Source: Chiloscyllium plagiosum
Taxonomy: Eukaryota
Direction of reading: 5' to 3'
Length of the DNA: 40,777 bases
Assembly (NCBI RefSeq): GCF_004010195.1
Contig: NC_057718.1
Location: 103,109,566 to 103,150,342, forward strand
The position numbers and the translations under genes are program-made. Positions 2,566-40,695 of this stretch are shown in pieces; within the stretch, counting starts at the first letter, position 1; the number at the start of each line of letters is the position of its first letter. Below the pieces are notes generated by a model that made no database searches, was not told the DNA's origin, and worked only from the letters and a program-made list of their open reading frames with translations.

Positions 2566-2744
2566 CAAAAACTGAAAGAACTGCAGATGCTGTAAATCAA
2601 AAACAAAAACAGAAATTACTGGAAAAGCTCAGCAGGTCTGGCAGCATCCGTGGCGAGAAATCAGAGTTAACGTTTCGGGTCGAGTGACCCATTCTCAGAA
2701 CACTGAGACCTGCTGACCTTTTCCAGCAATTTTGGTCTTTGTTT
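2566..2744 (-). mobile_element. PLE-derived short element, family 2, with inverted arm and degenerate hammerhead
   Basis: Flanked by AAGAACAAATTTTAT (2551-2565) and AAGAACAATGTTTAT (2745-2759). The right arm (~2706-2744) is the reverse complement of ~2600-2639. The minus strand of 2666-2701 is GTT-CTGAGAAT-GGGTC-ACTC-GACCC-GAAAC-GTT-AAC. Confidence 0.75.
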
Positions 2745-5700
2745 AAGAACAATGTTTATATCATAGGAGGAAATCTGTTGGGACAATGCATTGTTGGATT
2801 GTTCTGCCTGTGTATCAGAAACTGTGACAAACCCTTGCCACCATTAGAGGAATGGGAGCAAGTGGTGGATGAGATCCATGCTCTGTCCTGCTTGTCTAAA
2901 AACTTTCTAAAGTCGCAACTGGGTGACTGAAATTGCTAATGTAACTTTCAAACTTCTGTTTAAATATCTTTTTCCCTTAGAACATAATGAGCATATGGCA
3001 TGCACACTCACTTGGAGCTTTGAACGACAGGAGGGACTTTATTCTGAATCTGCATCCTGTCATCAGTGAATCCCAGGATATTTTTTTTGCTAAAACTTAA
3101 GACGTGATTTGCATTTGCCATTCGGATAGAGCTTAATATAATGCCTCTTTACTGCAGGAGCCCTCAATCAGTTAATTAAACATGAAATAAATCACGGCAT
3201 GAATTTGTAAAGTAAGATTAATATGGCGAAGTGAAGGTAATAAAGAAGCATTGCCATTGTCTGAGTGTGAATCAGGAATATGAAGATTACCCTGTTTGAA
3301 ATCAGATAGCTTTGAATGTTCTTTGTGGCTAATCTGTCGGAATGCTTTGTGGAACCTGAAACTCAGAGCTGTCATCTTTAGCCAAGTTCAGCTATAACTT
3401 CCTCAGCTTTCTCCATGAGTTGAACTATCATTTGAGATCCCAAGATCAAACCTTTCGTCAGACAATGGGGCTTCTCAGTCCCACCTGAGACACAGATAAC
3501 ACATTTAATAAATATTTTATCTAAAAATAAAGAGTCGTTCTTTTGGAAGACAAGGAGTACAAAATGCCCTTGATCGCTATATTCGGATAATTTGGAAAGT
3601 TAGATTTATATATTTAATTAGAGAAAATCATATTCTTTTGCAGTGATTAATGCTCTACCATCTTATTAATCTCGCCAATTATAGTAACACAAGATATATG
3701 CTTGAAAAGAACATCAAAGGCTTTTGAATTTTGCGCTGTATGAAGCAAGGGCTATTAATTGATGCAGAAAAAGTGCACTGAAAACACACCTCATAAAAGA
3801 AAATGTTACGTCCATAAAATTTTCAAATAAATGGCAGGACAGAAGAGCTGAAACTTCACACTAGGCGGGCAACTTTAACACTGGATCGAGACTCGAGGTC
3901 ATGGTAGCTTGCGGTAAGTGAGATTTTACAGGATGTTGTAGCTGTTTAATAGCACTTTAATGCCTAATGAGTGTCTGCACAAGCTATTCTGCTTCAGGTA
4001 TGGCAGAGTGATAATGTTAGTTGCACAAGCCTGAGATTCTATTGTTCTCCCTGATATCATGTTCAGTAAGTTGGTAATGAAACTGAAAACAATGAAATAT
4101 GTTTGATGTCATTTACAGAGCACTTATGTCATATTTGATGCTACCTATATCATATTTTGTCTGGCTGAACATTAGGCTTATTGTTTAGTGGAGTTACAGA
4201 TGGTCTGGACAAACTCAGTCCAAAATGACTAAATGTACAAACTCCAGAAGGTCAAATGCAAATCTTTTTTAGCACATTTGACAATCTTTAGAAATTTCAA
4301 ATTATACACCTGCAGAACATTTTCTTTGCTAAGACTGAGATTGGAGAGATACTTTCAAACAATTTGCAAAGTCTTGTAGCAGGTGAAATACTCTCATTGG
4401 ATGGAATTACTGTTCAGGTCTGAACTTATCAGGTCAAAGGAATAGTTACTGTCCAGTGTGGCATTCTGTAGGTCTCTGAGTTGTGATTTATTTGCAGTCT
4501 GGTTAGAACATAGGGCACAGGGGAGCTCTGCACCAAAGCACATACCTAAGTAGTCAGTTCTGCTGTTAACAATGAGCTCCACTGGTGCAAAGTCTGGGGA
4601 GGTGACAAGGGTCATGATTTCTCAGTCCTCAAAGCTAATAAAATATTTTCCATTGACTGCCCTCAGAAAAGAACATTGAACTAATCATCAAAACTAATCA
4701 TCAAAGGATGCTTGCACCAATACTCAACACTTTGTTTGACATTCCAGCAGATTGACAGAGCAAATGAGTTTGACAAACACCTCCTATTCCACACACTTAC
4801 CTGTTCATTGTGCTGCTATTTACAGTAGCCCCTCTGTTATCCTGGTAAATAAGTAAGTTTGGAGTAGAACCTCAGAGAAAGGGAGCCAACCACGGGTATC
4901 TTAGTGTTCTTTTAGAACCACTGAAGAATTTTTAAAAATTGCACAGGAAAGGTTGTAATTGGTATCCAAACACACTAGTGATGAATGAAAAAAGGAAATT
5001 AAATTAATGCCATTGGGACCGACTTTGTCAGAGGCACTAATAGAAGAGGGAAGCAACATATTTAGCAATTGGATAGGGAAAATCATTGCTGGGACTGAGG
5101 TAAAGTGCAAACATGCATCTGCTTTTTTTTATTAAGAGAAACATGAGGAACATTCAATGAGTGCTCTGTTTTTAAAATAGTCATTTTAAAAAAATATTGA
5201 AGACCACAATTAAAGGAGAGCTTTAGACAGACACCTAACACCTCAGGGGTGTATCAAAGGATGTCTCTTTGGAAAGAAACTTGGATAAAAGCCAAGTAAA
5301 GCCCAAATATTGAACAGTGAGGCCTTTCTGCATTCTAATATAAAACTTGGATCAACTTAATCCTAGTGATAAGAATGGCTCCATTTGTTTCCCAATGCAA
5401 TTTGTCATACTTCAGTAGTCATACGTTTGCCTCTGGTGCAGGTTAACATGACATTGAGTGGAAGATCAGAGCTTTTCTGAGAAAAAGGTGTGCAGATTAA
5501 AAGGACTCGAACTAAACCTATTAGAGGCTGATCTGTGCCAAGCCACCTTCCTGTCTGTATCCATCAGAAGTTAAGTTTTCATCAATCGACTTATATGGCC
5601 CCAGGAGTTCAAACAAAGCTGAATGAATCTGATATCACAGCGAGTGAGGTCATGAATAGTGAGGTAATTTCGCTCTCATGACAATATGAAAGGAAACATT

Positions 5701-6068
5701 TAGTCATAAATGGGTACCCTAAGGTCAGCATTTCTCACACTTGCCTCAACTTGGAACTAATTTGTCAACTCATGTTGAAAAATGGATTAAACAATTACAG
5801 CTAGGAACAGGATGAAGGCAGCTGAAATCTGAAGGACACAATGTCCAGCGTGCAGTGTAAGGTTACTGGGAGCTTGTAGTTGCATTGTTGAGCATCACTT
5901 AACCTTGAATGCTGATTGGGTGCGACGTGCAGCAGCATGTATCTGACTAATGCTCTCCTGAACATCTCAACCCTCAAATACCTCTGCAAACAGGAAGACC
6001 TTTGAGAAGAATGTTTCATTCTGATTTGTGAGGCAATTGCTCTTGAGACTCACCGGGGCAAAAAACCT

Positions 6069-7025
6069 GGAGAAAGTGAGGACGGCAGATATTGGAGATC
6101 AGAGTCGAGAATGTGTTGCTGGAAAAGCACAGCAGGTCAGGCAGCATCCGAGGAGCAGGAGAATTGACGTTTCGAGCATAAGCCCTTCATAATAGAATCA
6201 TAGAGATGTACAGCATGGAAAAAGACCCTTAGGTCCAACCTGTTCATGCCGACCAGATATCCCAACCCAATCTAGTTCCACCTGCCAGGCCTATATTCCT
6301 CCAAACCCTTCCTATTCATATACCCATCCAAATGCCTTTTAAATGTTGCAATTGTACCAGCCTTCACTACTTCATCTGGCAGCTCATTCCATACACGTGC
6401 CACCTTCTGCATGAAAAAGTTGCCCCTTAGGTCTCCTTTATGTCTTTCCCCTCTCACTCTAACCCTATGCCCTCTAGGTCTGGACTCCCCCACCTCAGGG
6501 AAAAGACTTTGTCTATTTTCCCTATCCATGCCCCTCATGATTTTATAAACCTTTATAAGTTCACCTCTCAGCCTCCGGTGCTCCAGGGAAAACAGCCCCA
6601 GCCTGTTCAGCCTCTTCCTATAGCTCAAATCCTCCAACCCTGGCAACATCCTTGTAAATCTTTTCTGAATCCTTGGTGTCATCAGGAATGAGGCTTGTGG
6701 GTTGGGGCTGAGAGATAAATGTGTGGGGGAGGGGGAGGAGGAGGTAGGTGGGAAAGCTGGAAAAGGGACACCCACACCCACCAACCCCACCGCCCCCTGG
6801 ATGAACACTTCAACTCTCCCTCCCACTCCATCAAAGACGTGCAGGTCCTGGGCCTCCTCTACCACCAAACCATTACCACCTGATGCCTGGAGGAGGAACA
6901 CCTCATTTTCCACCTTGGGACCCTGCAACCACATAGGATAAATGTGGGTTTCAACAGCTTCCTCATTTCCACTCCCCCCACATTATCCCAGTCCCAAGCC
7001 GCCAACTTGGCACCGCCCTCTGGAC
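6069..7025. mobile_element. Penelope-like element: minus-strand terminal repeat (6069-6190 and 6679-~6765) plus inverted plus-strand GIY-YIG C-terminal fragment (~6765-7025)
   Basis: Terminal-repeat sequence matches the other copies. ~6790-6965 encodes a degenerate EHFNSPSHSIKDVQVLGLL...LEEEHLIFHLGTLQPHRINVGFNSF. Confidence 0.85.
6191..6672 (-). mobile_element. CR1 (HER1-like) LINE 3' end
   Basis: Encodes RFTRMLPGLEDLSY..RLGLFSLEHRRLRGELIKVYKIMRG..RGNFFMQKVARVWNELP..FKRHLDGYM (CR1 ORF2 C-terminus), followed by a CTATGATTCTA-type tail. Confidence 0.92.
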
Positions 7026-7607
7026 AAACAAACTGTCCACAGAGATCCAGTAATGTCTCTCTTCGATTTCTGGATATTAATTTTATTCCAGAAACAGTTG
7101 CAGCAGATCTCCAGGAGCCCAGCAACAAGGATGTCAATAAACAGGCCAAGCAGCCAATCACGTTGAAGAATTCTCAGATTGCGGATGAGGATGTGTTTTT
7201 ATTAATCGTTCACAGGGTATGGGCATTACTGGTTAAAGTGACATTTACTACCATTTCTAGTCACCTTGCAGAAGGTGATGGCAGAAAATGGTGTTCCCAT
7301 AGAGGTCTATAGTAATTACCAAAAGCTTGCAGAACTTAATCAAAAGTAGCTGATGTTTCTTTCATGCTTTGTCAAGCCATAATGCGCTCAGACCAGATGA
7401 CGCTGTCTTTTCCCTCTCTCCAACCTTCTCAAATAGCCACAATAAAAAAATAAAAATCTTGAACATGCAGCTCTAATTCACTCCAATGAAAATGTTTACC
7501 AGAAACAATGGGGGTGGGGGTGAGGCAATTGTAAGGTCTGCTTCAGTGAAATGAAAAGCAATTGTTTTATTTGTTAACCTCCCAAAAAAATGCAATAGCA
7601 AATGTGT

Positions 7608-7830
7608 ACATGCACACACACATACACACGCTCTCTCTCTGACACACAGAAAACTCTCTCTCTGACACACACTCTCTCTCAAATACACACTCTCTCTGAC
7701 ACACACATACACTCTCTCTCTGACACACACATACACTCTCTCCCTCTGACACACACACATTTTCTCTCTCTGACACACATACACACTCTCTCTGAAACAC
7801 ACACACTCTCTCTCTCAGACACACACACTC
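7608..7830. repeat. Compound (CA)n/(CT)n microsatellite with a ~22-bp higher-order unit
   Basis: Repeats of CTCTCTCTGACACACA(CATACA). Confidence 0.95.
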
Positions 7831-7935
7831 GTACAGGTTAGTTTAAAAAGGATGGTGTCCAGCACAAAAAGGAAGATAAAATATGCAGTGTACAGTGCTT
7901 CGGGTGTTATGTTTTCACCTGAAACCCATGATTAA

Positions 7936-8330
7936 ACCATAAAAACATAAGGAATAGGAACAGGAGGAGGCCATTCAGCCCCTCAATCCTGCTCTGCCAT
8001 TCGATAGGATCATGGCAGATCTGACATTCCTCACATCCAATTTCTTGCCTTTCTCCATAATCCTTGATTTTCCGACTGATCAAGAAACTATCCCAGCCTA
8101 AAATGTACACAATGACTCTGCTCCCACAGCTCTCTGTGATGAGCAGTTCCAAAGACTTACAACCCTCAGACAAGAAATCCTCATCTCCATCTTAAATGGG
8201 TGCCCCTTTATTCGGAGGCTGTGCCCTCTAGCCCCAAGCTCTCCCATGAGGGGAAACATCCTCTCAGCATTGACCCTGTCAAGCTCCTTAAGAATCTGAT
8301 ATGTTATAAGATCATCGCTCATTCTTCTCA
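7936..8330 (-). mobile_element. CR1 LINE 3' end (older subfamily)
   Basis: Encodes RRMSDDLITYQILKELDRVNAERMFPLMGELGARGHSLRIKGHPFKMEMR..RVVSLWN, followed by a CTCCTGTTCCTATT..TTATG tail. Confidence 0.88.
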
Positions 8331-9597
8331 ATTACTATCATTAGATTCAAAACCCATTGAACCTTTGCTTATGCATCGCTCATGTTTGGTTAGGAATATT
8401 CTGGAACAATGCCAGCCATAAATATTGCAGATATCTTTGAGGTCTTGATGATCAGATGTCTCTCTCCAGTTTGCATTAGCACTGGGTGGCTTTGTCCTTT
8501 CGGAGACTGGGAGAAAGCAGAAGAAAGAGGGGGATGTTTCCAGTTCCAGTAACAAATCCAGCTCACTGCTTCACCATTAAAACCTCCCTGAAATAATTCT
8601 GGAACTCAGTGTCTGAAATCTTTCTTTTCAAGCTGATTAGTCAAGGTTTCTTTTTTAAAATCTCCAACATATGAACTTCTTGTAAAGGTGTGAATTAAAT
8701 AGGAGCTACAGATATGGTTCGCTGGTTTCAAGGTGCTTGATAATTAGCTAATATCAGTTCGGACTGGTTCTTGTTTATCGATATGTTCATCAAGGCTGGC
8801 TTAACTGTGACAAGAACTATGACCATTTTTAAAAATAATACTTTTAATTTTGAAATCATTTCAGTCCATAACAGTCCTAAAAATTAAAACCTGATTTTGG
8901 ATTTGACAAATTCGTAGCTGATATTTTTCTACTATCATGATGAAGTTCATCATCTGTTCTCCCAATTGAATACAAAAATATATTTGCTTGTTCAGCTTCT
9001 TATTTAATATTTAGGTTCAAAGCAATTCTGCTTCTTATGAACTTCCTATCTCACCCCATAGGTAGCCATTTAAGGACCACTTAATGGCCTCATCCCACTG
9101 CCATTAGAATTAACCCCAGCTGTTGCCATGCTATCTTCCTAAAAGCAGGAAATATGTGGGCTATCTGTTGGCTTGCCAGAGGGTTATTCCCAAATCAAAG
9201 ACATATCACGTCTGATCGAGGACTCGGCTATAGGGCAGTAGCTCGGGAGATGTAACCATTAGCAGACACCTATTCTTCCTTGCTCCTGACCTCTACAGCC
9301 CTCTCTCTCCATATCCCCCACGCCAGGAAACATTACCCTCATCAAGTCCCCACACAAAGACTTTCCCCCACTCCTGGTACTTCAGTGCTGCCCCTCGAAC
9401 TTCTTGATGGGCAGGAAGTCCCAAGGATCTTCTTTTGAATATGTAGCCTGGATCTCTCCATGACTATCTGCACAAACAGCTGCCAACAAAGGAATCTGAC
9501 TCAGGTTTGTGCAACTATGCGTCAGGGAACCCCGACACCATCCAAGCCCCTTTCACAGGCTCCTTTGTGGGTCAGTGTCGTGCGCAGCATGTGCATT

Positions 9598-15759: not shown

Positions 15760-15941
15760 AATTGATCAATCTCAGTCTTGGATCTATTTAATGAACGAGC
15801 TTCCATGAGCCTCTAGGGTAGAGAATTCCAAACTCTCATCACCTTCTGAGTGAAGAAATTCCTCCTCATCTCAGCCCGAAACCTCCAGCCCATTATTCTA
15901 AAACTATGGCCTTGGTTTTAGAGTCACCAGACATGGAAAAT

Positions 15942-16457
15942 GGCACCTCTGGGCCACCCGGACGAACCAACCCAACCAACCTGTGGCACAGCATTTCAAC
16001 TCCCCCTCCCACTCCACCGAGGATATGCAGGTCATTGGACTCATCCACCGCCAAACCACAACAACCCGACGGTCGGAGGAGGAGCGTCTTATCTTCCGAC
16101 TGGGAACCCTCCAACCGCAGGGGATGAACTTGGACTTCACCAGTTTCTTCATCCCCCCTCCCCCCACCTTGTCTCAGCCGGATCCTTCCAGCCCGGCACC
16201 GCCTTCCTGACCTGCAGTCTTCTTCTTGACCTCTCCGCCTCCACCCTACTCCGACCTATCACCCTCACCTTGACCTCTTTCCACCTATCACATTTCCAAC
16301 TCCCCTCCTCCAAGTCCCTCCTCCCTACCTTTTATCTTCTCCTGCTGAACACTCTCTGCTCATTCCTGAAGAAGGGCCTGTGCCCGAAACGTCGAATCTC
16401 CTGTTCCCTGGATGCTGCCTGACCTGCTGTGCTGTTCCAGCAATAAAGTTTCAACAA
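15942..16457 (+). mobile_element. 5'-truncated young Penelope-like element (GIY-YIG C-terminus plus terminal repeat)
   Basis: 14-bp TSD CAGACATGGAAAAT (15928-15941, 16458-16471). Encodes VAQHFNSPSHSTEDMQVIGLIHRQTTTTRRSEEERLIFRLGTLQPQGMNLDFTSF. AATAAA at 16442. Confidence 0.93.
16362..16397 (+). ncRNA. Minimal type-I hammerhead ribozyme (intact core)
   Basis: ATTC (stem I) - CTGAAGA - A - GGGC CTGT GCCC (stem II) - GAAAC - GTC - GAAT (stem I'). Loopless palindromic stem III (ACGT). Predicted cleavage after C16393. Confidence 0.8.
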
Positions 16458-16584
16458 CAGACATGGAAAATATCCTATTCACATCCATCCTGCCATATTC
16501 TGAAGAATTTTACAACTCTCAATGAGACCTGTCTTTGAAACTAGAGAATATGGGCTCAGTTTCCTAAGTCTGTCCTCAGAAGAC

Positions 16585-16715
16585 TTTCTCCCCACCCCCA
16601 CCCTCCTCTCATTTATCTCTCCACCCTTCAGGCTCTCTGCCTGTATTCCTGATGAAGGGCTTTTGCCCGAAACATTGATTTTACTGCTCCTCAGATGCTG
16701 CCACTCTAATCTAGA
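16585..16715 (+). mobile_element. Short PLE terminal-repeat insertion with decayed hammerhead
   Basis: 10-bp TSD CTCAGAAGAC (16575-16584, 16716-16725). Contains ATTCCTGATGAAGGGCTTTTGCCCGAAACATTG. Confidence 0.88.
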
Positions 16716-18622: not shown

Positions 18623-18914
18623 GGTGGCTTAGTGGTTAACACTGCTGCCTCACAGCGTCAGGGACCCAGGTTCAATTTCAGTCTCGGGCGATTCTCTGTG
18701 TGGAGATTGCACATTCTCCCAGTGTCTGCGTGGGTTTCCTCTGGGTGCTCTAGTTTCCTCCCACAGTCCAAAGATGTGCAGGTTAGGGTGGATTAGCCAT
18801 GGGAGATGCAAGGTTACAGGGACAGGTGGGTGGGTCTGGGTGGGATGCTCTTCAGAGGGTTGGTGTGTGGACTTGTTGGGTCGAATGGCCTATTTCTATT
18901 CTATAGGAAGTCTA
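18623..18914 (+). mobile_element. HE1 SINE (V-SINE)
   Basis: A box TGGCTTAGTGG, B box GGTTCAATTTC, V-domain GTCTGCGTGGGTTTCCTCTGGGTGCTC..CCCACAGTCCAAAGATGTGCAGG, CR1-like tail. Confidence 0.93.
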
Positions 18915-19773: not shown

Positions 19774-20128
19774 ATTAGATTAGATTAGATTAGATTAGAT
19801 TACTTACAGCGTGGAAACAGGCCCTTCGGCCCAACAAGTCCACACCAACCCGCCGAAGCGCAACCCACCCATACCCCTACATTTACCCCTTATTACCTAG
19901 GTAATACCCCTTATTACCTAACACTAAGGGCAATTTAGCATGGAACAATTCACCTAACCTGCACATCTTTGGACTGTGGGAGGAAACCGGAGCACCCGGA
20001 GGAAACCCACGCAGACACGGGGAGAACGTGCAAACTCCACACAGTCAGTCGCCTGAGTCGGGAATTGAACCCGGGTCTCTGGCGCTGTGAGGCAGCAGTG
20101 CTAACCACTGTGCCACTGTGCCGCCCAC
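19774..20128 (-). mobile_element. Full-length young HE1 SINE with (TCTAA)n tail
   Basis: Head GGCGGCACAGTGGCACAGTGGTTAGC, B box GGTTCAATTCCC, V-domain. AGTG is duplicated at 19770-19773 and 20129-20132. Confidence 0.96.
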
Positions 20129-20178
20129 AGTGGTGCTGGAAAAGCACAGCAGGTCAGGCAGCATGCGAGGAGCAGGAA

Positions 20179-20214
20179 AATCGACGTTTCGGGCAAAAGC
20201 CCTTCATCAGGAAT
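20179..20214 (-). ncRNA. Minimal hammerhead motif, intact core
   Basis: Minus strand: ATTC-CTGATGA-A-GGGC-TTTT-GCCC-GAAAC-GTC-GATT. Stem I has one U.U mismatch. Confidence 0.7.
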
Positions 20215-20438
20215 GTGCCTGATGAAGGGCTTTTGCCCGAAATGTTGATTTTCCTGCTCCTCAGATGCTGCCTGACCTGCTGTGCTTTTCTAGCACCACT
20301 CTGATCTAGAACACAGCAGGCGGAGAGGAGAGGGTGTACTATTAGGTGAAGGCAGGTCAAAGGAAACATTCTGGCACCTTAAAACTACAGCAGCAGAATC
20401 CCAGCAAAGCAACAAAACTTCATGTGTTGTAGGTTTCC

Positions 20439-21445: not shown

Positions 21446-21823
21446 GTGTGAAATAGCAGGTTCAGAACGGTCAGCAGCTTACACATCTCAGATTGCAGAA
21501 TTGCAGTTCTCTGTGACCTTCTTATCTTCCTGTACAAGCTGCACTCAGTGAATGCTTTTCATTTTTCATTCAAGAGATGTGGGCTTCATTGGTTAGGCCA
21601 GCATTCAATACCGACTCCCACAGCTACCTGGATTACACCTCTTCCCACCCTACCTCTTGCAAAAATGCCATCCCGTATTCCCAATTCCTCCGCCTCCGCC
21701 GTATCTGCTCCCAGGAGGAGCAGTTCCACCATAGAACACACCAGATGGCCTCCTTCTTTAGAGACCACAATTTCCCTTCCCATGTGGTTAAAGATGCCCA
21801 CCAACGCATCTCGTCCACATCCC

Positions 21824-22441: not shown

Positions 22442-22495
22442 CCCACCCCCACCCTCCTCTAGCTTATCTCTCCACGCTTCAGGCTCTCTGCCTTT

Positions 22496-22531
22496 ATTCC
22501 TGATGAAGGGCTTTTGCCCGAAACGTCAATT
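22496..22531 (+). ncRNA. Minimal hammerhead motif, core intact, stem I weakened
   Basis: ATTC-CTGATGA-A-GGGC-TTTT-GCCC-GAAAC-GTC-AATT. Confidence 0.6.
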
Positions 22532-23861
22532 TCGAAGCTCCTCGGATGCTGCCTGAATTGCTGTGCTCTTCCAGCACCACTGATCCAGCATTCAATGCCC
22601 CATCCCTAGTTGCTCCTTGAGAAAGTGGGGGTGAGCTGTCTTCTTGAACTGCTGTAGTCCATGTACTGTAGGTAGACCCACAATGCCCTTAGGGAGGGAA
22701 CTGTAGGGTCTTGACCCAGCGACACCGAAGGAACAATGATTTCCAAGTCAGAATAGTGAGTGGCTTAGAGGGGAACCTGCAGGGGGTAGCATTCCCATAC
22801 ATCCACACCCCTTGTTCTTCTGGATGGAAGTTGTTGTGGGTTTGGAAGGTGCTGTCTGAGGATCTTCGGTGAATTTTTGCAGTGAATTCTTGTAGATAGT
22901 ACACACTGCTGCTACTGAGAGTCAGTGGTGGAGGGAGTGGATGCTTGTGGATGTGGTGCCAATCAAGTGGCTGCTTTGTCCTGGATGGTGCTGAGCTTCT
23001 TGAGTGTTGTTGGAGTTGCACCCATCCAGGCAAGTGGGAGTATTCCGTCACCCTCCTGACTTGTGCCTTGTAGATGGTAGGCAGGCTTTGTAGATTCAAC
23101 CAGCCAAATGAGCTAACTGACCCTTATTGATGTAAAGAGGTCACAATGGTTACATGATTGTGTTTCTTAGTTTCAATGTCTTGCTCCGCGTATAGTTACG
23201 AAAAGTGGAGTCTTTCAGTCAAAGGGCCATTCATGGTTTATGGAACTTAATAATCTTTCAGGAAACGTATGAACTTTCACACAAAAGGCCAGGGCAAATT
23301 GAACAGCAACTGCTCAGGTACAATTCAGGGTTCCCATTTCTTGCAGGCGTTTGTGTTTTGAGTCCTAATGACTCTGATTTGTTTAAAGAGTAGGCAGTAT
23401 TGCAAAGTAGTGTTTGTATTTTTCATTTTTTAATTTATGGTCCTCATTAAACGATGGTAAAACCAGAGCAATTATCATTTATCTTAATATATAATTCACT
23501 AGGTCTTACCGTCATGGTTAGGGACCTAGGGCAGGAGGCCTGGGAATAGAGACAGGTTACAGAACTGCTCGCATGAGGCTCTTGCATCTTATTGAGCAGC
23601 TGGCACAGAATAAAACAGCCCACATTTTGACATATGAGGGGAGGTGCTCACTGCCTCATCAACACTCAGGAGGAAGCATGCGAGGAAGATAGCATTACGC
23701 TACTTAATGAAGCCTCAGGATGATTTAATGAGCACTCCCTATCAGGCCACTCAGCTCATCAATAATTAACATTCCCTCCCCCTCCACACACACTCACACT
23801 CCTGATCCTGTACCTTCCTCTTCCCCACAGTGAACTGGGCAAGAACCAACCCCGTTCAGGG

Positions 23862-26778: not shown

Positions 26779-27077
26779 ACCTGAATTCGATTCCAGCCTC
26801 AGGCTAATGTGGAGCTTGCACATTCTCCCCATGTCTGCGTGGGTTTCCTCCTGCTGCTCCGGTTTCCTCTCACAGTCCAAAGATGCGCAGGTTCGATGGC
26901 CATGCTAAATTGCTCCACAGTGTCCAGGGATGTGCAATCCAGGTGGATTAACCATGGGAAATGCAGTGTTACAGGGACAGGGTAACAGAGTGGGTCTGGA
27001 TGGGATAGTCTTTGTGAGGATTGGCATGGACTCAATGGGCCAAATAGCCTACTTCCACACTGAAGGGATTCTATGAT
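26779..27077 (+). mobile_element. 5'-truncated HE1 SINE
   Basis: V-domain TGTGGAGCTTGCACATTCTCCCCATGTCTGCGTGGGTTTCC; tail GGGATTCTATGAT. Confidence 0.9.
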
Positions 27078-28146: not shown

Positions 28147-29310
28147 GAGGGTAGAGCAGTGGATGTAGTGTACATGGGTTTTAGTAAGGCATTTGATAAG
28201 GTTCTCCATGTTAGGCTTATGCGGAGGTCAGGAGGCATGGGATAGAGGGAGATTTGGCCAATTGGATAGAAAACTGGCTAACCGGTCGAAGGCAGAGAGT
28301 GGTGGTAGATGGTAAATATTCAGCCTTGAGCCCAGTTACAAGTGGAGTTCCGCAGGGATCAGTTCTGGGTCCTCTGCTGTTTGTAATTTTTATTAATGAC
28401 TTAGATGAGGGAGTCGAAGGGTGGGTCAGTAAATTTGCAGATGATACGAAGATAGGTGGAGTTGTGGACAGGGAGGGCTGTTGTCGGCTGCAGAGGGACT
28501 TAGATATGATGCAGAGCTGGGCTGAGGAGTGGCAGATGGAGTTCAACCCTGCCACGTGTGAGGTTGTCCATTTTGGAAGAACAAATAAGAATGCGGAATA
28601 GAGGGTTAATGGTAGGGTTCTTAGTCAGGTGGAGGAACAGAGGGATCTTGGGGTCTATGTACATAGATCTTTGAAGGTTGCCACTCAGGTGGATAGAGTT
28701 TGTAAGAAGGCCTATGGAGTATTATCGTTCATTAGCAGAGGGATTGAATTCAAGAGTCGTGAAGTGATGTTGCAGCTGTACAGGACTTTGGTTAGGCCAC
28801 AGTTGGAGTACTGTGTGCAGTTCTGGTTGCCTCACTTTAGGAAAGATGTGGAAGCTTTGGAGAGGGTGCAGAGAAGGTTTACCAGGATGTTGCCTGGAAT
28901 GGAGAGGAAGTCGTACGAGGCTAGGTTGAGAGTTCTCGGCCTTTTCTCGTTGGAACGGCGAAGGATGAGGGGTGAGTTGATAGAGGTTTATAAGATGATC
29001 AGAGGCATAGATAGAGTAGACAGTCAGAAACTTTTTCCCCGGGCACAACCGAGTGTTACAAGGGGACATAAATTTAAGGTGAAGGGTGGAAGGTATAGGG
29101 GAGATGTCAGGGGTGGGTTCTTTACCCAGAGAGTGGTGGGGGCATGGAATGCGCTGCCTGTGGGAGTGGCAGAGTCAGAATCATTGGTGACCTTTAAGCG
29201 GCAATTGGATAGGTACATGGATGGGTGCTTAAGCTAGGACAAATGTTCGGCACATCATCGTGGGCCGAAGGGCCTGTTCTGTGCTGTATTGTTCTATGTT
29301 CTATGTTCTA
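28147..29310 (+). mobile_element. Well-preserved 5'-truncated CR1 LINE (RT and C-terminus; pseudogenised)
   Basis: Encodes [34 protein letters not shown] (FADD at 28434-28445). In-frame TAG at 28599-28601; (TTCTATG)n tail. Confidence 0.96.
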
Positions 29311-35482: not shown

Positions 35483-36559
35483 TGTTACATCAACAGACAT
35501 CAGAAATGTCAGCATGTGTGGACTGCAAACTCCTAAGATATAAACTTCCTTTCCCCAGCAGTGTGTCCATTTTGTTATAGTCTAGACCAAACCCACTCAA
35601 AATATATCCAGGAGATAGCCTAGACTTTAACTTTTTATTTTCTTTAACGGCACTGCATTTCAAGTGTGAGTTAATTGGTCCTCCATGTGGCTTTGAGGAA
35701 AACACACTTTATTCTCATAACACAATTAAACTACAAACAAAAAAAGAATTGAAATTCTTTAACTCTATTGAAATACTTAGAAACATAACATTAGATTAGA
35801 TTAGATTAGATTAGATTACTTACAGTGTGGAAATAGGCCCTTCGGCCCAACAAGTCCACACCGACCCGCCGAAGCGCAACCCATCCAGACCCATTCCCTT
35901 ACATTTACCCCTTCACCTAACACTACGGGCAATTTAACATGGCCAATTCACCTAACCTTCACATCTTTGGACTGTGGGAGGAAACCGGAGCACCCGGAGG
36001 AAACCCACGCAGACATGGGGAGAATGTGCAAACTCCACAAGTCAGTCGTCTGAGGCGGGAATTGAACCCGGGTCTCTGGCGCTGTGAGGCAGCAGTGCTA
36101 ACCACTATTTAACTAGTTTTCATCAACTATTCCAATATAGCAGCATCTCATAAACACACCCTTAACAAGGACAAATTCAGCAAAACAGATTTTGCTTATG
36201 GGCTATCTTCTCCAGTCCAGGAGAAAGAAACACTGAAAGCAGCAATCTCACAGCACAGAGAGAAAGAGAGCTGCAGCAATAGAGAGAGAGCTGTATCTAC
36301 CAGCTTCAACCAGCAACTCCAAACCCCAGCTGAAAACAAAACTAAAACCCTGGGTCTGAGTGAGGTTGACTCCACCCTCTCATGCTTCTTTTGTCTAACT
36401 TAAAAAAAACACTCAGGGAGTTCAAAACTGCTTACCTCCTGCTTTGGAAGCAGATATTCTGGTACTATTGTGTCAACACCTCTCTGCAAGAGAAACAGCA
36501 CAGACCAAATCTCTCTTAAAGGCACCAGTTCCCCTCCACCACCACCCAACCCTGTCACA
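35483..36559. mobile_element. Possible solo LTR interrupted by HE1
   Basis: Begins TGTTACA and ends TGTCACA; minus-strand AATAAA signals. No clear TSD. Confidence 0.3.
35791..36106 (-). mobile_element. Near full-length young HE1 SINE with (TCTAA)n tail
   Basis: Highly similar to 19774-20128. Confidence 0.96.
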
Positions 36560-37147: not shown

Positions 37148-37277
37148 AGGGCCTGAAGAAGGGCCTGTGCCCGAAACGTCGAATCTCCTGTTCCCTGGAT
37201 GCTGCCTGACCTGCTGTGCTGTTCCAGCAATAAAGTTTCAACTTTGATCTCCAGCATCTGCAGACCTCACTTTCTCC
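37148..37277 (+). mobile_element. Short young PLE terminal-repeat insertion starting at the hammerhead core
   Basis: 12-bp TSD TCCTATGTCAGA (37136-37147, 37278-37289). CTGAAGA-A-GGGC-CTGT-GCCC-GAAAC-GTC at 37153-37180. Confidence 0.93.
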
Positions 37278-40487: not shown

Positions 40488-40695
40488 GAGTCACAGTATG
40501 GATACTCGGTAAATCATTAGGGAATGAGATGAGGATTCTGGATTAGAGTGATGCTGGAAAAGCACAGCAGGTCAGGCAGCATCAGAGGAGCGAGTCACAG
40601 TATGGATACTCGGTAAATCATTAGGGAATGAGATGAGGATTCTGGATTAGAGTGATGCTGGAAAAGCACAGCAGGTCAGGCAGCATCAGAGGAGC
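40488..40695. repeat. Perfect 104-bp tandem duplication
   Basis: 40488-40591 = 40592-40695. Confidence 0.95.

What the first reader, a model, noticed from the sequence alone, without database searches (positions are those of the whole stretch)
16362..16397. Minimal, probably dimer-dependent hammerhead ribozyme in the terminal repeat of a shark Penelope-like element
Seen: ATTC-CTGAAGA-A-GGGC-CTGT-GCCC-GAAAC-GTC-GAAT, i.e. the full hammerhead core (CUGANGA/GAAA/UH) with paired stems I and II and an extra A after A9, downstream of a GIY-YIG-type C-terminus. Related motifs occur at about a dozen sites (2666, 6165, 11216, 14329, 16645, 20179, 20219, 22496, 29845, 37153, 37427, 40701). Known: PLE terminal repeats carry minimal type-I hammerheads, and some cleave only as dimers. 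Inference: stem III has no loop (palindrome ACGT), so it cannot fold as a monomer and would need two copies, from tandem repeats or two RNAs.
Basis: partly seen in the sequence, partly recalled or inferred. Interest (0 to 1): 0.72.

Follow-up and report, generated by a model that had tools for sequence, protein, structure and literature searches.

The report
Known minimal hammerhead in shark retrotransposon
The motif is a real, intact copy of the small self-cutting RNA that Penelope-like jumping genes are known to carry, left behind here in a broken insertion in shark-like DNA, so it is an ordinary new example of a kind described in 2014.

Summary
Confirmed. 16362-16397 (+) is an intact minimal type-I hammerhead motif: full core, extra A after A9, 4-bp stems I and II, loopless ACGU palindrome. 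It lies in a 516-bp 5'-truncated Penelope-like (Neptune-type) insertion (15942-16457) with an exact 14-bp target-site duplication, 151 nt after a GIY-YIG C-terminus that is 80% identical to a bamboo-shark protein. The dimer inference is not new: Cervera and de la Peña (2014) defined this class, with these features, and showed weak dimer-only cleavage. No shark appears in the part of their alignment I read. This copy is probably inert, with selection acting on source elements (3 compensatory pair changes, all from one other subfamily). The more interesting pattern: 8-9 of 14 copies start at the motif's 5' edge and none at the cut site, which suggests uncleaved RNA beginning there is the template. 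This scan has noted both the motif and that pattern before, in this genome and others. Cleavage and expression were not tested.

The parts
15928..15941 (.). Left target-site duplication, 14 bp, exact
   Evidence: 0 of 1500 random zone pairs reached 12 bp exact
15942..16210 (+). 3' end of the Penelope-like ORF: GIY-YIG endonuclease C-terminus (two His of the CCHH motif), Pro-rich extension, stop at 16208-16210; 5'-truncated
   Evidence: (80% and 73% identity to Chiloscyllium punctatum proteins P0002, P0003)
16211..16361 (+). Pyrimidine-rich spacer (3' UTR / upstream part of the pLTR)
   Evidence: a U-rich 5' flank is part of the published min-HHR consensus
16362..16397 (+). Minimal type-I hammerhead motif; predicted cut after C16393
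16362..16365 (+). Stem I 5' strand; also the edge at which many family copies begin
16374..16385 (+). Stem II hairpin, 4 bp with 4-nt loop
   Evidence: (pair probability about 0.85 in context)
16389..16392 (+). ACGU palindrome (15.1, 15.2, 16.2, 16.1): helix III only between two copies
   Evidence: sequence
16398..16457 (+). Conserved block downstream of the cut site, up to the short 3' end of the element; the optional 30-35-nt tail is absent in this copy
   Evidence: end at +91 from C3, against +120 to +128 in tailed copies
16458..16471 (.). Right target-site duplication
16585..16715 (+). Separate insertion of subfamily B with its own 10-bp TSD, internal deletion and broken palindrome (ACAT); not a tandem partner
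37148..37277 (+). Sister copy of the same subfamily, 100% identical over 91 nt, starting at position 2.1 (stem I lost), with tail and 12-bp TSD
20126..20311 (.). Head-to-head inverted pair of subfamily B ends; both arms start at the motif's 5' edge; motifs on opposite strands
2580..2744 (-). Subfamily C end with decayed core, compensatory stem changes and an adjacent inverted piece

Best explanation
SHOWN: the motif is a minimal type-I hammerhead sequence in the terminal repeat (pLTR) of a Neptune-type Penelope-like retrotransposon. This copy is a 516-bp 5'-truncated insertion made by endonuclease-nicked, reverse-transcribed integration (14-bp TSD). FROM THE LITERATURE: in full-length partial-tandem elements one transcript carries two such motifs. 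The GAAAC of one pairs with the GUC of the other through the ACGU palindrome, stem I forms between the two copies, and the double hammerhead cuts slowly after C17, probably with help from protein. INFERRED: selection for the fold acts on transposing source elements. Inserted stubs such as this one have no ORF start and no matched partner in cis and decay neutrally, first at the three CpGs inside the motif. This copy is intact because it is young, not because the host keeps it. It is probably inert unless transcribed together with, or alongside, another intact copy.
For: Exact match to the published consensus (CUGANGAH, G..C stem II, GAAAN-palindrome-NUH, U-rich 5' flank) and near-identical layouts in fish, tick, sea-urchin and Xenopus rows. 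Element context: homology to RT+GIY-YIG proteins; CX2-5CxxC linker in P0003 and in 104 of 117 relatives with a YIG-like motif, the Neptune/Nematis mark; vertebrates sampled hold only Neptune and Poseidon. TSDs, optional tail and inverted 5' pieces as described for PLEs. Covariation: 3 of 8 pairs changed on both sides, stem II 100% paired, slid controls at most 59% paired. In 8 subfamily-B copies, non-CpG positions of the motif differ from the majority in 1 of 169 cells against 20 of 314 downstream (p=0.002; about 0.035 with the gapped copy 14329 added by hand), while CpG positions differ equally, 11 of 48 against 4 of 16. Family-wide contigs list their largest variants in loop II and at stem I position 1.3, with none listed in the core. 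Homodimer forms 4+4 bp of stem I and 4 bp of helix III.
Against: No cleavage or expression data. All three double-sided changes come from one sequence (subfamily C), whose own core is decayed, and 19 of 500 shuffles reached the same score. Subfamily B has U·U at pair 2.3-1.3, so stem I is only 75% paired. The active homodimer fold (-13.1 kcal/mol) is not the minimum-energy dimer (-18.3), and the monomer folds no better than shuffles (z -0.81). The variant table shows 30 rows, ends at 16410 and misses differences known from the window (16370 A>T, 16434 G>T), so missing core rows are weak evidence. Downstream differences include subfamily polymorphisms, and 5' boundaries were set by match, which favours the motif. 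In the anole PLE the hammerhead needed protein and was dispensable; 8 of 9 predicted Xenopus retrozyme dimers did not cleave.
Confidence: 0.85

Rival explanations
1. Protein-assisted cleavage: the element's RT-EN protein binds the tail region and folds one copy (or bridges two RNAs) into the active core, so tandem copies in one transcript are not required.
For: The anole PAc hammerhead showed no cleavage without protein, and cleavage was lost with core mutants but not with endonuclease mutants (PMC11167929). The active dimer fold here is not the thermodynamic minimum. Subfamily B monomers bury the core by pairing it with the palindrome (-11.4 kcal/mol, z -2.46), which would need a chaperone.
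Against: PAc is Poseidon-type and this element is Neptune-type. A true monomer would need a 1-bp helix III with a 2-nt loop. The self-complementary ACGU occurs in all three subfamilies here and palindromy is a class feature, which dimer pairing explains.
Confidence: 0.25
2. The motif is kept in source elements mainly as a non-catalytic signal (RNA start or promoter element, protein-binding fold, or RT run-off boundary); cleavage is marginal.
For: None of 14 window copies starts at the cut site (+28) and 8-9 start at -8..+10. In PAc, uncleaved RNA was the main substrate and no RNA-seq reads ended at the cut site. Naiad elements thrive without hammerheads.
Against: All catalytic core residues and an H17 are kept in subfamilies A and B and across phyla. 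Related dimers do cleave in vitro, weakly.
Confidence: 0.12
3. This particular copy is active in cis with the 16645 copy, or has been adopted by the host.
For: 16362 is the only window copy with a perfect core, palindrome and 4-bp stem I; a same-strand relative lies 283 nt downstream.
Against: The neighbour is a separate insertion with ACAT. The heterodimer fold scores -5.1 with a mismatched helix III, and helix III pair probabilities in the read-through RNA are at most 0.0002. A 100% identical sister shows that youth explains intactness. No host ORF stood out among the 17 frames of at least 130 aa, several of which are retroelement pieces or gap artefacts (read by eye, not scanned).
Confidence: 0.04

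Closest known systems
Minimal hammerheads (min-HHR) of metazoan Penelope-like elements (Cervera and de la Peña 2014, PMC4209133; Lünse et al., RNA Biol 14:1499, not held, known through its citation in PMC6765202)
   Same: Type-I layout, CUGANGA plus one extra nucleotide, G10.1-C11.1, no helix III loop, palindromic 15.2-16.2, U-rich 5' flank, position in the pLTR after RT-EN, mostly solo in truncated copies, also as opposite-strand pairs.
   Different: Stem II is 4 bp (S. mansoni 7-8 bp; several published rows 3-5 bp). No chondrichthyan row in the part of their alignment read. Local density here is about 0.35 element ends per kb, most with decayed motifs, against about 4,000-9,000 motifs per genome reported for coelacanth and Xenopus.
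Poseidon element PAc of Anolis (Frangieh et al. 2024, PMC11167929)
   Same: Hammerhead in the pLTR; two 3' end points about 30-35 nt apart (optional tail), which they tie to two internal RT start sites; copies extend past the cut site.
   Different: PAc is Poseidon-type with the ORF starting at stem II; here the element is Neptune-type and the ORF start was not established. Protein-assisted cleavage is shown for PAc, untested here.
Non-LTR retrozymes (Li, Clavereau and Pollet 2026, bioRxiv 10.64898/2026.07.22.740005)
   Same: Derived from PLE pLTRs, type-I hammerheads (canonical and minimal models), reported in one chondrichthyan genome.
   Different: Defined as tandem arrays with a motif in each unit; this copy is a dispersed TSD-flanked insertion that still carries endonuclease sequence, and no hammerhead array occurs in the window.
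Dimeric hammerheads of newt satellite 2 and ASBVd (Forster et al. 1988, as cited in PMC6155905 and PMC4209133)
   Same: Double-hammerhead fold through a palindromic helix III.
   Different: Those keep a short helix III with a small loop and lie in tandem or rolling-circle RNAs.

Membership tests
min-HHR of metazoan PLEs | Core CUGANGA ... GAAA ... UH in type-I order | tested here: met
min-HHR of metazoan PLEs | Extra nucleotide between 9 and 10.1; G10.1-C11.1 pair | tested here: met
   A16373; G16374-C16385; criteria
min-HHR of metazoan PLEs | No helix III loop; palindromic 15.2-16.2 | tested here: met
   ACGU at 16389-16392
min-HHR of metazoan PLEs | Short stem I and stem II supported by covariation among families | tested here: inconclusive
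   3 of 8 pairs with double-sided change, all from one sequence; 19 of 500 shuffles as high
min-HHR of metazoan PLEs | Located in the pLTR of a PLE, downstream of RT-EN | tested here: met
   151 nt after the stop of a GIY-YIG C-terminus, inside one TSD pair
min-HHR of metazoan PLEs | Cleaves as dimer, not as monomer | not testable with these tools
   Only folding energies, which do not model the catalytic core
Neptune-type EN+ PLE | RT followed by C-terminal GIY-YIG endonuclease with CCHH | tested here: met
   In the closest relatives P0002/P0003 (Pfam hits below curated cut-offs); the window copy holds only the C-terminal part with the two His
Neptune-type EN+ PLE | CX2-5CxxC linker between RT and EN | tested here: met
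   P0003 and 104 of 117 relatives; the linker is not present in the truncated window copy
Neptune-type EN+ PLE | RT phylogeny against named Neptune, Nematis and Poseidon references | not tested
   No named references were held; Neptune rather than Nematis rests on the vertebrate distribution
Neptune-type EN+ PLE | 5' truncation, TSD, optional 30-40-bp tail, inverted 5' copies | tested here: met
   against descriptions
Non-LTR retrozyme | Tandem array with a complete hammerhead in consecutive units | tested here: not met
   No such array in the window; 16645 is an independent insertion
Rfam hammerhead families | Score against the covariance models | tested here: not met
   No hammerhead family among 16 matches up to E=10

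The most novel reading that the evidence does not exclude
The element's RNA begins at the first base of the hammerhead (A16362, in an initiator-like TCATTCC context; the initiator consensus is recalled, not tested). Reverse transcription starts internally 90-130 nt downstream, at either end of the tail, and runs off that 5' end on uncleaved RNA. One mechanism would then explain the mass of 90-130-bp hammerhead-headed stubs, the head-to-head pairs centred on stem I and the absence of copies starting at the cut site. Longer copies such as 15942-16457 would come from read-through of tandem elements. Shark genomes would hold on the order of 10^5 or more such stubs, a ready natural record of where PLE reverse transcription starts and stops, and a pool of partners for cleavage in trans.
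Probability: 0.35. Interest if true: 0.45.

Novelty: new member of a known kind. Interest (0 to 1): 0.17.

Why it matters
As a ribozyme report it adds one taxon to a class described in 2014. Its value is as material: three subfamilies in 40 kb, clean TSDs and a sharp pile-up of 5' ends at the motif's front edge bear on the open question of what PLE hammerheads do in transposition. The ends argue that inserted copies were not made from RNA trimmed at the cut site, in line with the anole in-vitro result.

Tried and rejected
No whole genome is held for this window, so no genome-wide count was possible. Rfam: no hammerhead hit; the miRNA-family matches at 20158-20271 are below gathering score and reflect the inverted pair. 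DNA pattern scans found nothing in viral or metagenome contigs; the P0003 scan of viral contigs confirmed 0 of 25 candidates. Expression: no RNA holder listed on record. The one raw-read RNA run laid (X21, about 6% of the run read) gave 0 reads, which the tool marks as no test; X4 and X9 are only guessed to be RNA and are contigs, so they show neither expression nor RNA ends. Summed contig depth (4-5.6 million over the motif against 6.4 in the unique flank, X18) is not a copy number and is used only as a sign of very high repetition. Rejected: 16362+16645 as a tandem unit (separate TSDs). Rejected: 6190(-) as a short copy; it joins 6692(-) as one copy split inside the core by a LINE 3' end. 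Rejected: the 104-bp tandem at 40488-40695 as a retrozyme (the duplicated unit lacks the motif). A possible ORF start at the ATG of 16412 found no support: no such peptide printed for any of the 154 stored proteins. A splice acceptor upstream of stem I (as in D. virilis) and a DPE-like element were considered; subfamily B has a pyrimidine tract with CAG about 15 nt upstream, but no shared upstream exon is seen in short copies. No TSD above background was found for 14329, 20126-20311, 23980(-) and 6066-7020 (4 of 11 tested). Lünse et al. could not be read. The sequence look-up of earlier findings returned nothing.

Full report
Observation. The 36 bases at 16362-16397 are as described. They read, in hammerhead numbering, stem I 5' strand (16362-16365), C3-A9 (16366-16372), one extra A, a 4-bp stem II with a CUGU loop (16374-16385), G12-A14, the palindrome A15.1-C15.2-G16.2-U16.1 (16389-16392), C17 (16393) and the stem I 3' strand (16394-16397). 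The exact pattern occurs 4 times in the window and in none of 100 shuffles. Rfam lists no hammerhead family among 16 matches up to E=10. A covariance model built from 7 window copies found 13 matches, all at sites already known, 7 of them by construction.

The element. The frame upstream encodes a GIY-YIG C-terminus. Pfam does not recognise the 99-aa fragment. A search of longer proteins gave 3 hits among 11 candidates: two Chiloscyllium punctatum proteins (80% and 73% identity) and one Leucoraja erinacea protein (56%). These carry GIY-YIG hits below the curated cut-off, two of them also RVT_1. P0003 has 1372 relatives at E<=1e-30. P0003 and 104 of 117 stored proteins with a YIG-like motif have the CX2-5CxxC linker that marks Neptune and Nematis elements (PMC8557442, passages). 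The insertion is bounded by an exact 14-bp duplication at 15928-15941 and 16458-16471; the longest exact match in 1500 random zone pairs was 11 bp. It is therefore a 516-bp 5'-truncated copy with no ORF start.

Other copies. Anchoring on the conserved block downstream gave 14 sites. I dropped 40583(-), part of a 104-bp local duplication, and added 16645, which lacks the anchor through an internal deletion; 14 copies remain, in three subfamilies. Duplications of 9 bp or more exact, or 13-15 bp with two mismatches, flank 7 of 11 tested; the shorter ones approach background. The neighbour at 16645 has its own 10-bp duplication and ACAT in place of ACGT, so the two are independent insertions. 20126-20311 is a head-to-head pair. 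6692(-) and 6190(-) are one copy split inside the core by a LINE end. 3' ends fall in two groups, +91 from C3 for this copy and +120 to +128 for three tailed copies, matching the optional tail of PLEs.

Is the fold under selection? On 7 copies with complete motifs, 87.5% of cells pair, stem II 100% and stem I 75%. Three of 8 pairs change on both sides, all in the single subfamily C copy; 19 of 500 shuffles matched this, and slid controls reached at most 59% pairing. This is one lineage contrast and only suggestive. In 8 ungapped subfamily B copies, non-CpG positions of the motif differ from the majority in 1 of 169 cells, against 20 of 314 downstream (p=0.002). Copy 14329 was left out for its gap; adding it by hand gives about 4 of 189 against 22 of 356 (p=0.035). 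CpG positions differ at the same rate inside and outside the motif (11 of 48, 4 of 16). The simplest reading is that source elements kept the motif while inserted copies decay neutrally. Contigs from three public runs (25018, 2852 and 5336 laid) show their largest listed variants in loop II (16378, 16380) and at 16396, about 4% at the CpG 16390/16391 in X18, and none listed in the core. The table has 30 rows and omits differences known from the window, so this is weak.

Mechanism. A monomer cannot close helix III with an ordinary loop; the 36-mer folds with stems I and II at -7.1 kcal/mol, no better than shuffles. Two copies can form a nested double hammerhead with 4+4 bp of stem I and 4 bp of helix III (-13.1), though a strand-swapped duplex is more stable (-18.3); the pair 16362+16645 scores -5.1, and in the read-through RNA helix III pairs have probabilities of at most 0.0002. 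These energies ignore the tertiary core. Weinberg et al. (PMC6765202, passages) review the dimer model and cite Lünse et al., which is not held. Frangieh et al. (PMC11167929, parts 1-2 of 4) found the anole PLE hammerhead cleaves only with the element's protein and is dispensable for insertion in vitro. Li et al. (bioRxiv 2026, parts 1-3 of 5; supplements closed) scanned one chondrichthyan for tandem hammerheads and saw cleavage in 1 of 9 Xenopus dimers. I also saw passages of PMC6155905, PMC2377424 and PMC3846280.

The 5' ends. Eight copies start firmly between -8 and +10 of C3 (2702-, 11216, 14329, 20214-, 20219, 29860-, 37153, 37427) and a ninth (23980-) probably does; five extend further, two of them to a gap or the window end. 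None starts at the cut site (+28). For 9 of 14, a uniform start over -70..+45 gives p=8e-5, but the interval was chosen after looking and two of the copies are arms of one insertion. In runs X4 and X9, 39, 19 and 39 contigs have loose ends just before 16362 or 16363 with low agreement (0.35-0.37), as expected for unrelated flanks; subfamily differences upstream could add to this. The pattern fits a template RNA that begins at stem I and is copied uncleaved from internal start points in the tail. A stall or processing site at that edge is not excluded. I noted this pattern in the same turn as, and before reading, the earlier notes of this scan, several of which report it for the same genome; those notes are unchecked and add no independent weight.

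Novelty. Paper searches: hammerhead + Penelope + dimer (25 papers); Penelope-like + hammerhead + shark (1 paper, where 'shark' refers to the ribozyme's name); Penelope-like elements + Neptune + hammerhead + pLTR (3 listed); Penelope + shark + elasmobranch and others (3); Penelope-like + ribozyme + truncated + solo + cartilaginous (5). None of the listings describes this shark family or the 5'-end pile-up, but the library lacks most subscription papers, and unseen supplements and repeat databases may list it. Verdict: real, correctly identified, a new member of a known kind; this copy probably inert. Interest 0.17.

Noticed in passing
window 6066-7020: One PLE copy with an inverted endonuclease part (6765-7020, +) and its pLTR on the minus strand, split inside the hammerhead core by a LINE 3' end (about 6191-6680).
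   Followed up: partly
window 21610-21822 and 22442-22600: An RT/thumb fragment 94% identical in protein to P0003 runs into the 618-N gap, and a subfamily B pLTR comes out of it on the same strand; probably one copy of 1 kb or more.
   Followed up: partly
window 37148-37152: Between the TSD and the motif lie a few bases that repeat the start of stem II, as if RT slipped back at the shared CCTG on reaching the motif's 5' edge.
   Followed up: no
window 20126-20311: Head-to-head pair with about 90-bp arms at 93% complementarity; a transcript would form a long hairpin and gives sub-threshold miRNA-family matches in Rfam.
   Followed up: partly
subfamily B copies, e.g. window 20179-20214 (-): With U at position 7 the monomer's core strand pairs with its own palindrome (-11.4 kcal/mol, z -2.46), an inactive fold that subfamily A (A at 7) lacks.
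   Followed up: partly
runs X18 and X9 laid on window 16240-16480: Single contigs join 16439-16443 back to 16360-16363, possibly short head-to-tail stubs that would place two motifs in tandem (one contig each, letters between not known).
   Followed up: no
window 40488-40695: Exact 104-bp tandem duplication spanning a PLE 3' end and its flank; recent duplication or assembly artefact.
   Followed up: no
window 16411-16432 and tailed copies (37198-37262): The start of the downstream block is complementary to a stretch in the tail in all three subfamilies, but predicted folds differ between copies.
   Followed up: partly
window 18624-18787, 19946-20116, 26808-26898, 35944-36039, 28239-29237: Other abundant repeats: a SINE-like family (resembles the shark HE1/V-SINE, recalled, not tested) and LINE RT fragments.
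   Followed up: no
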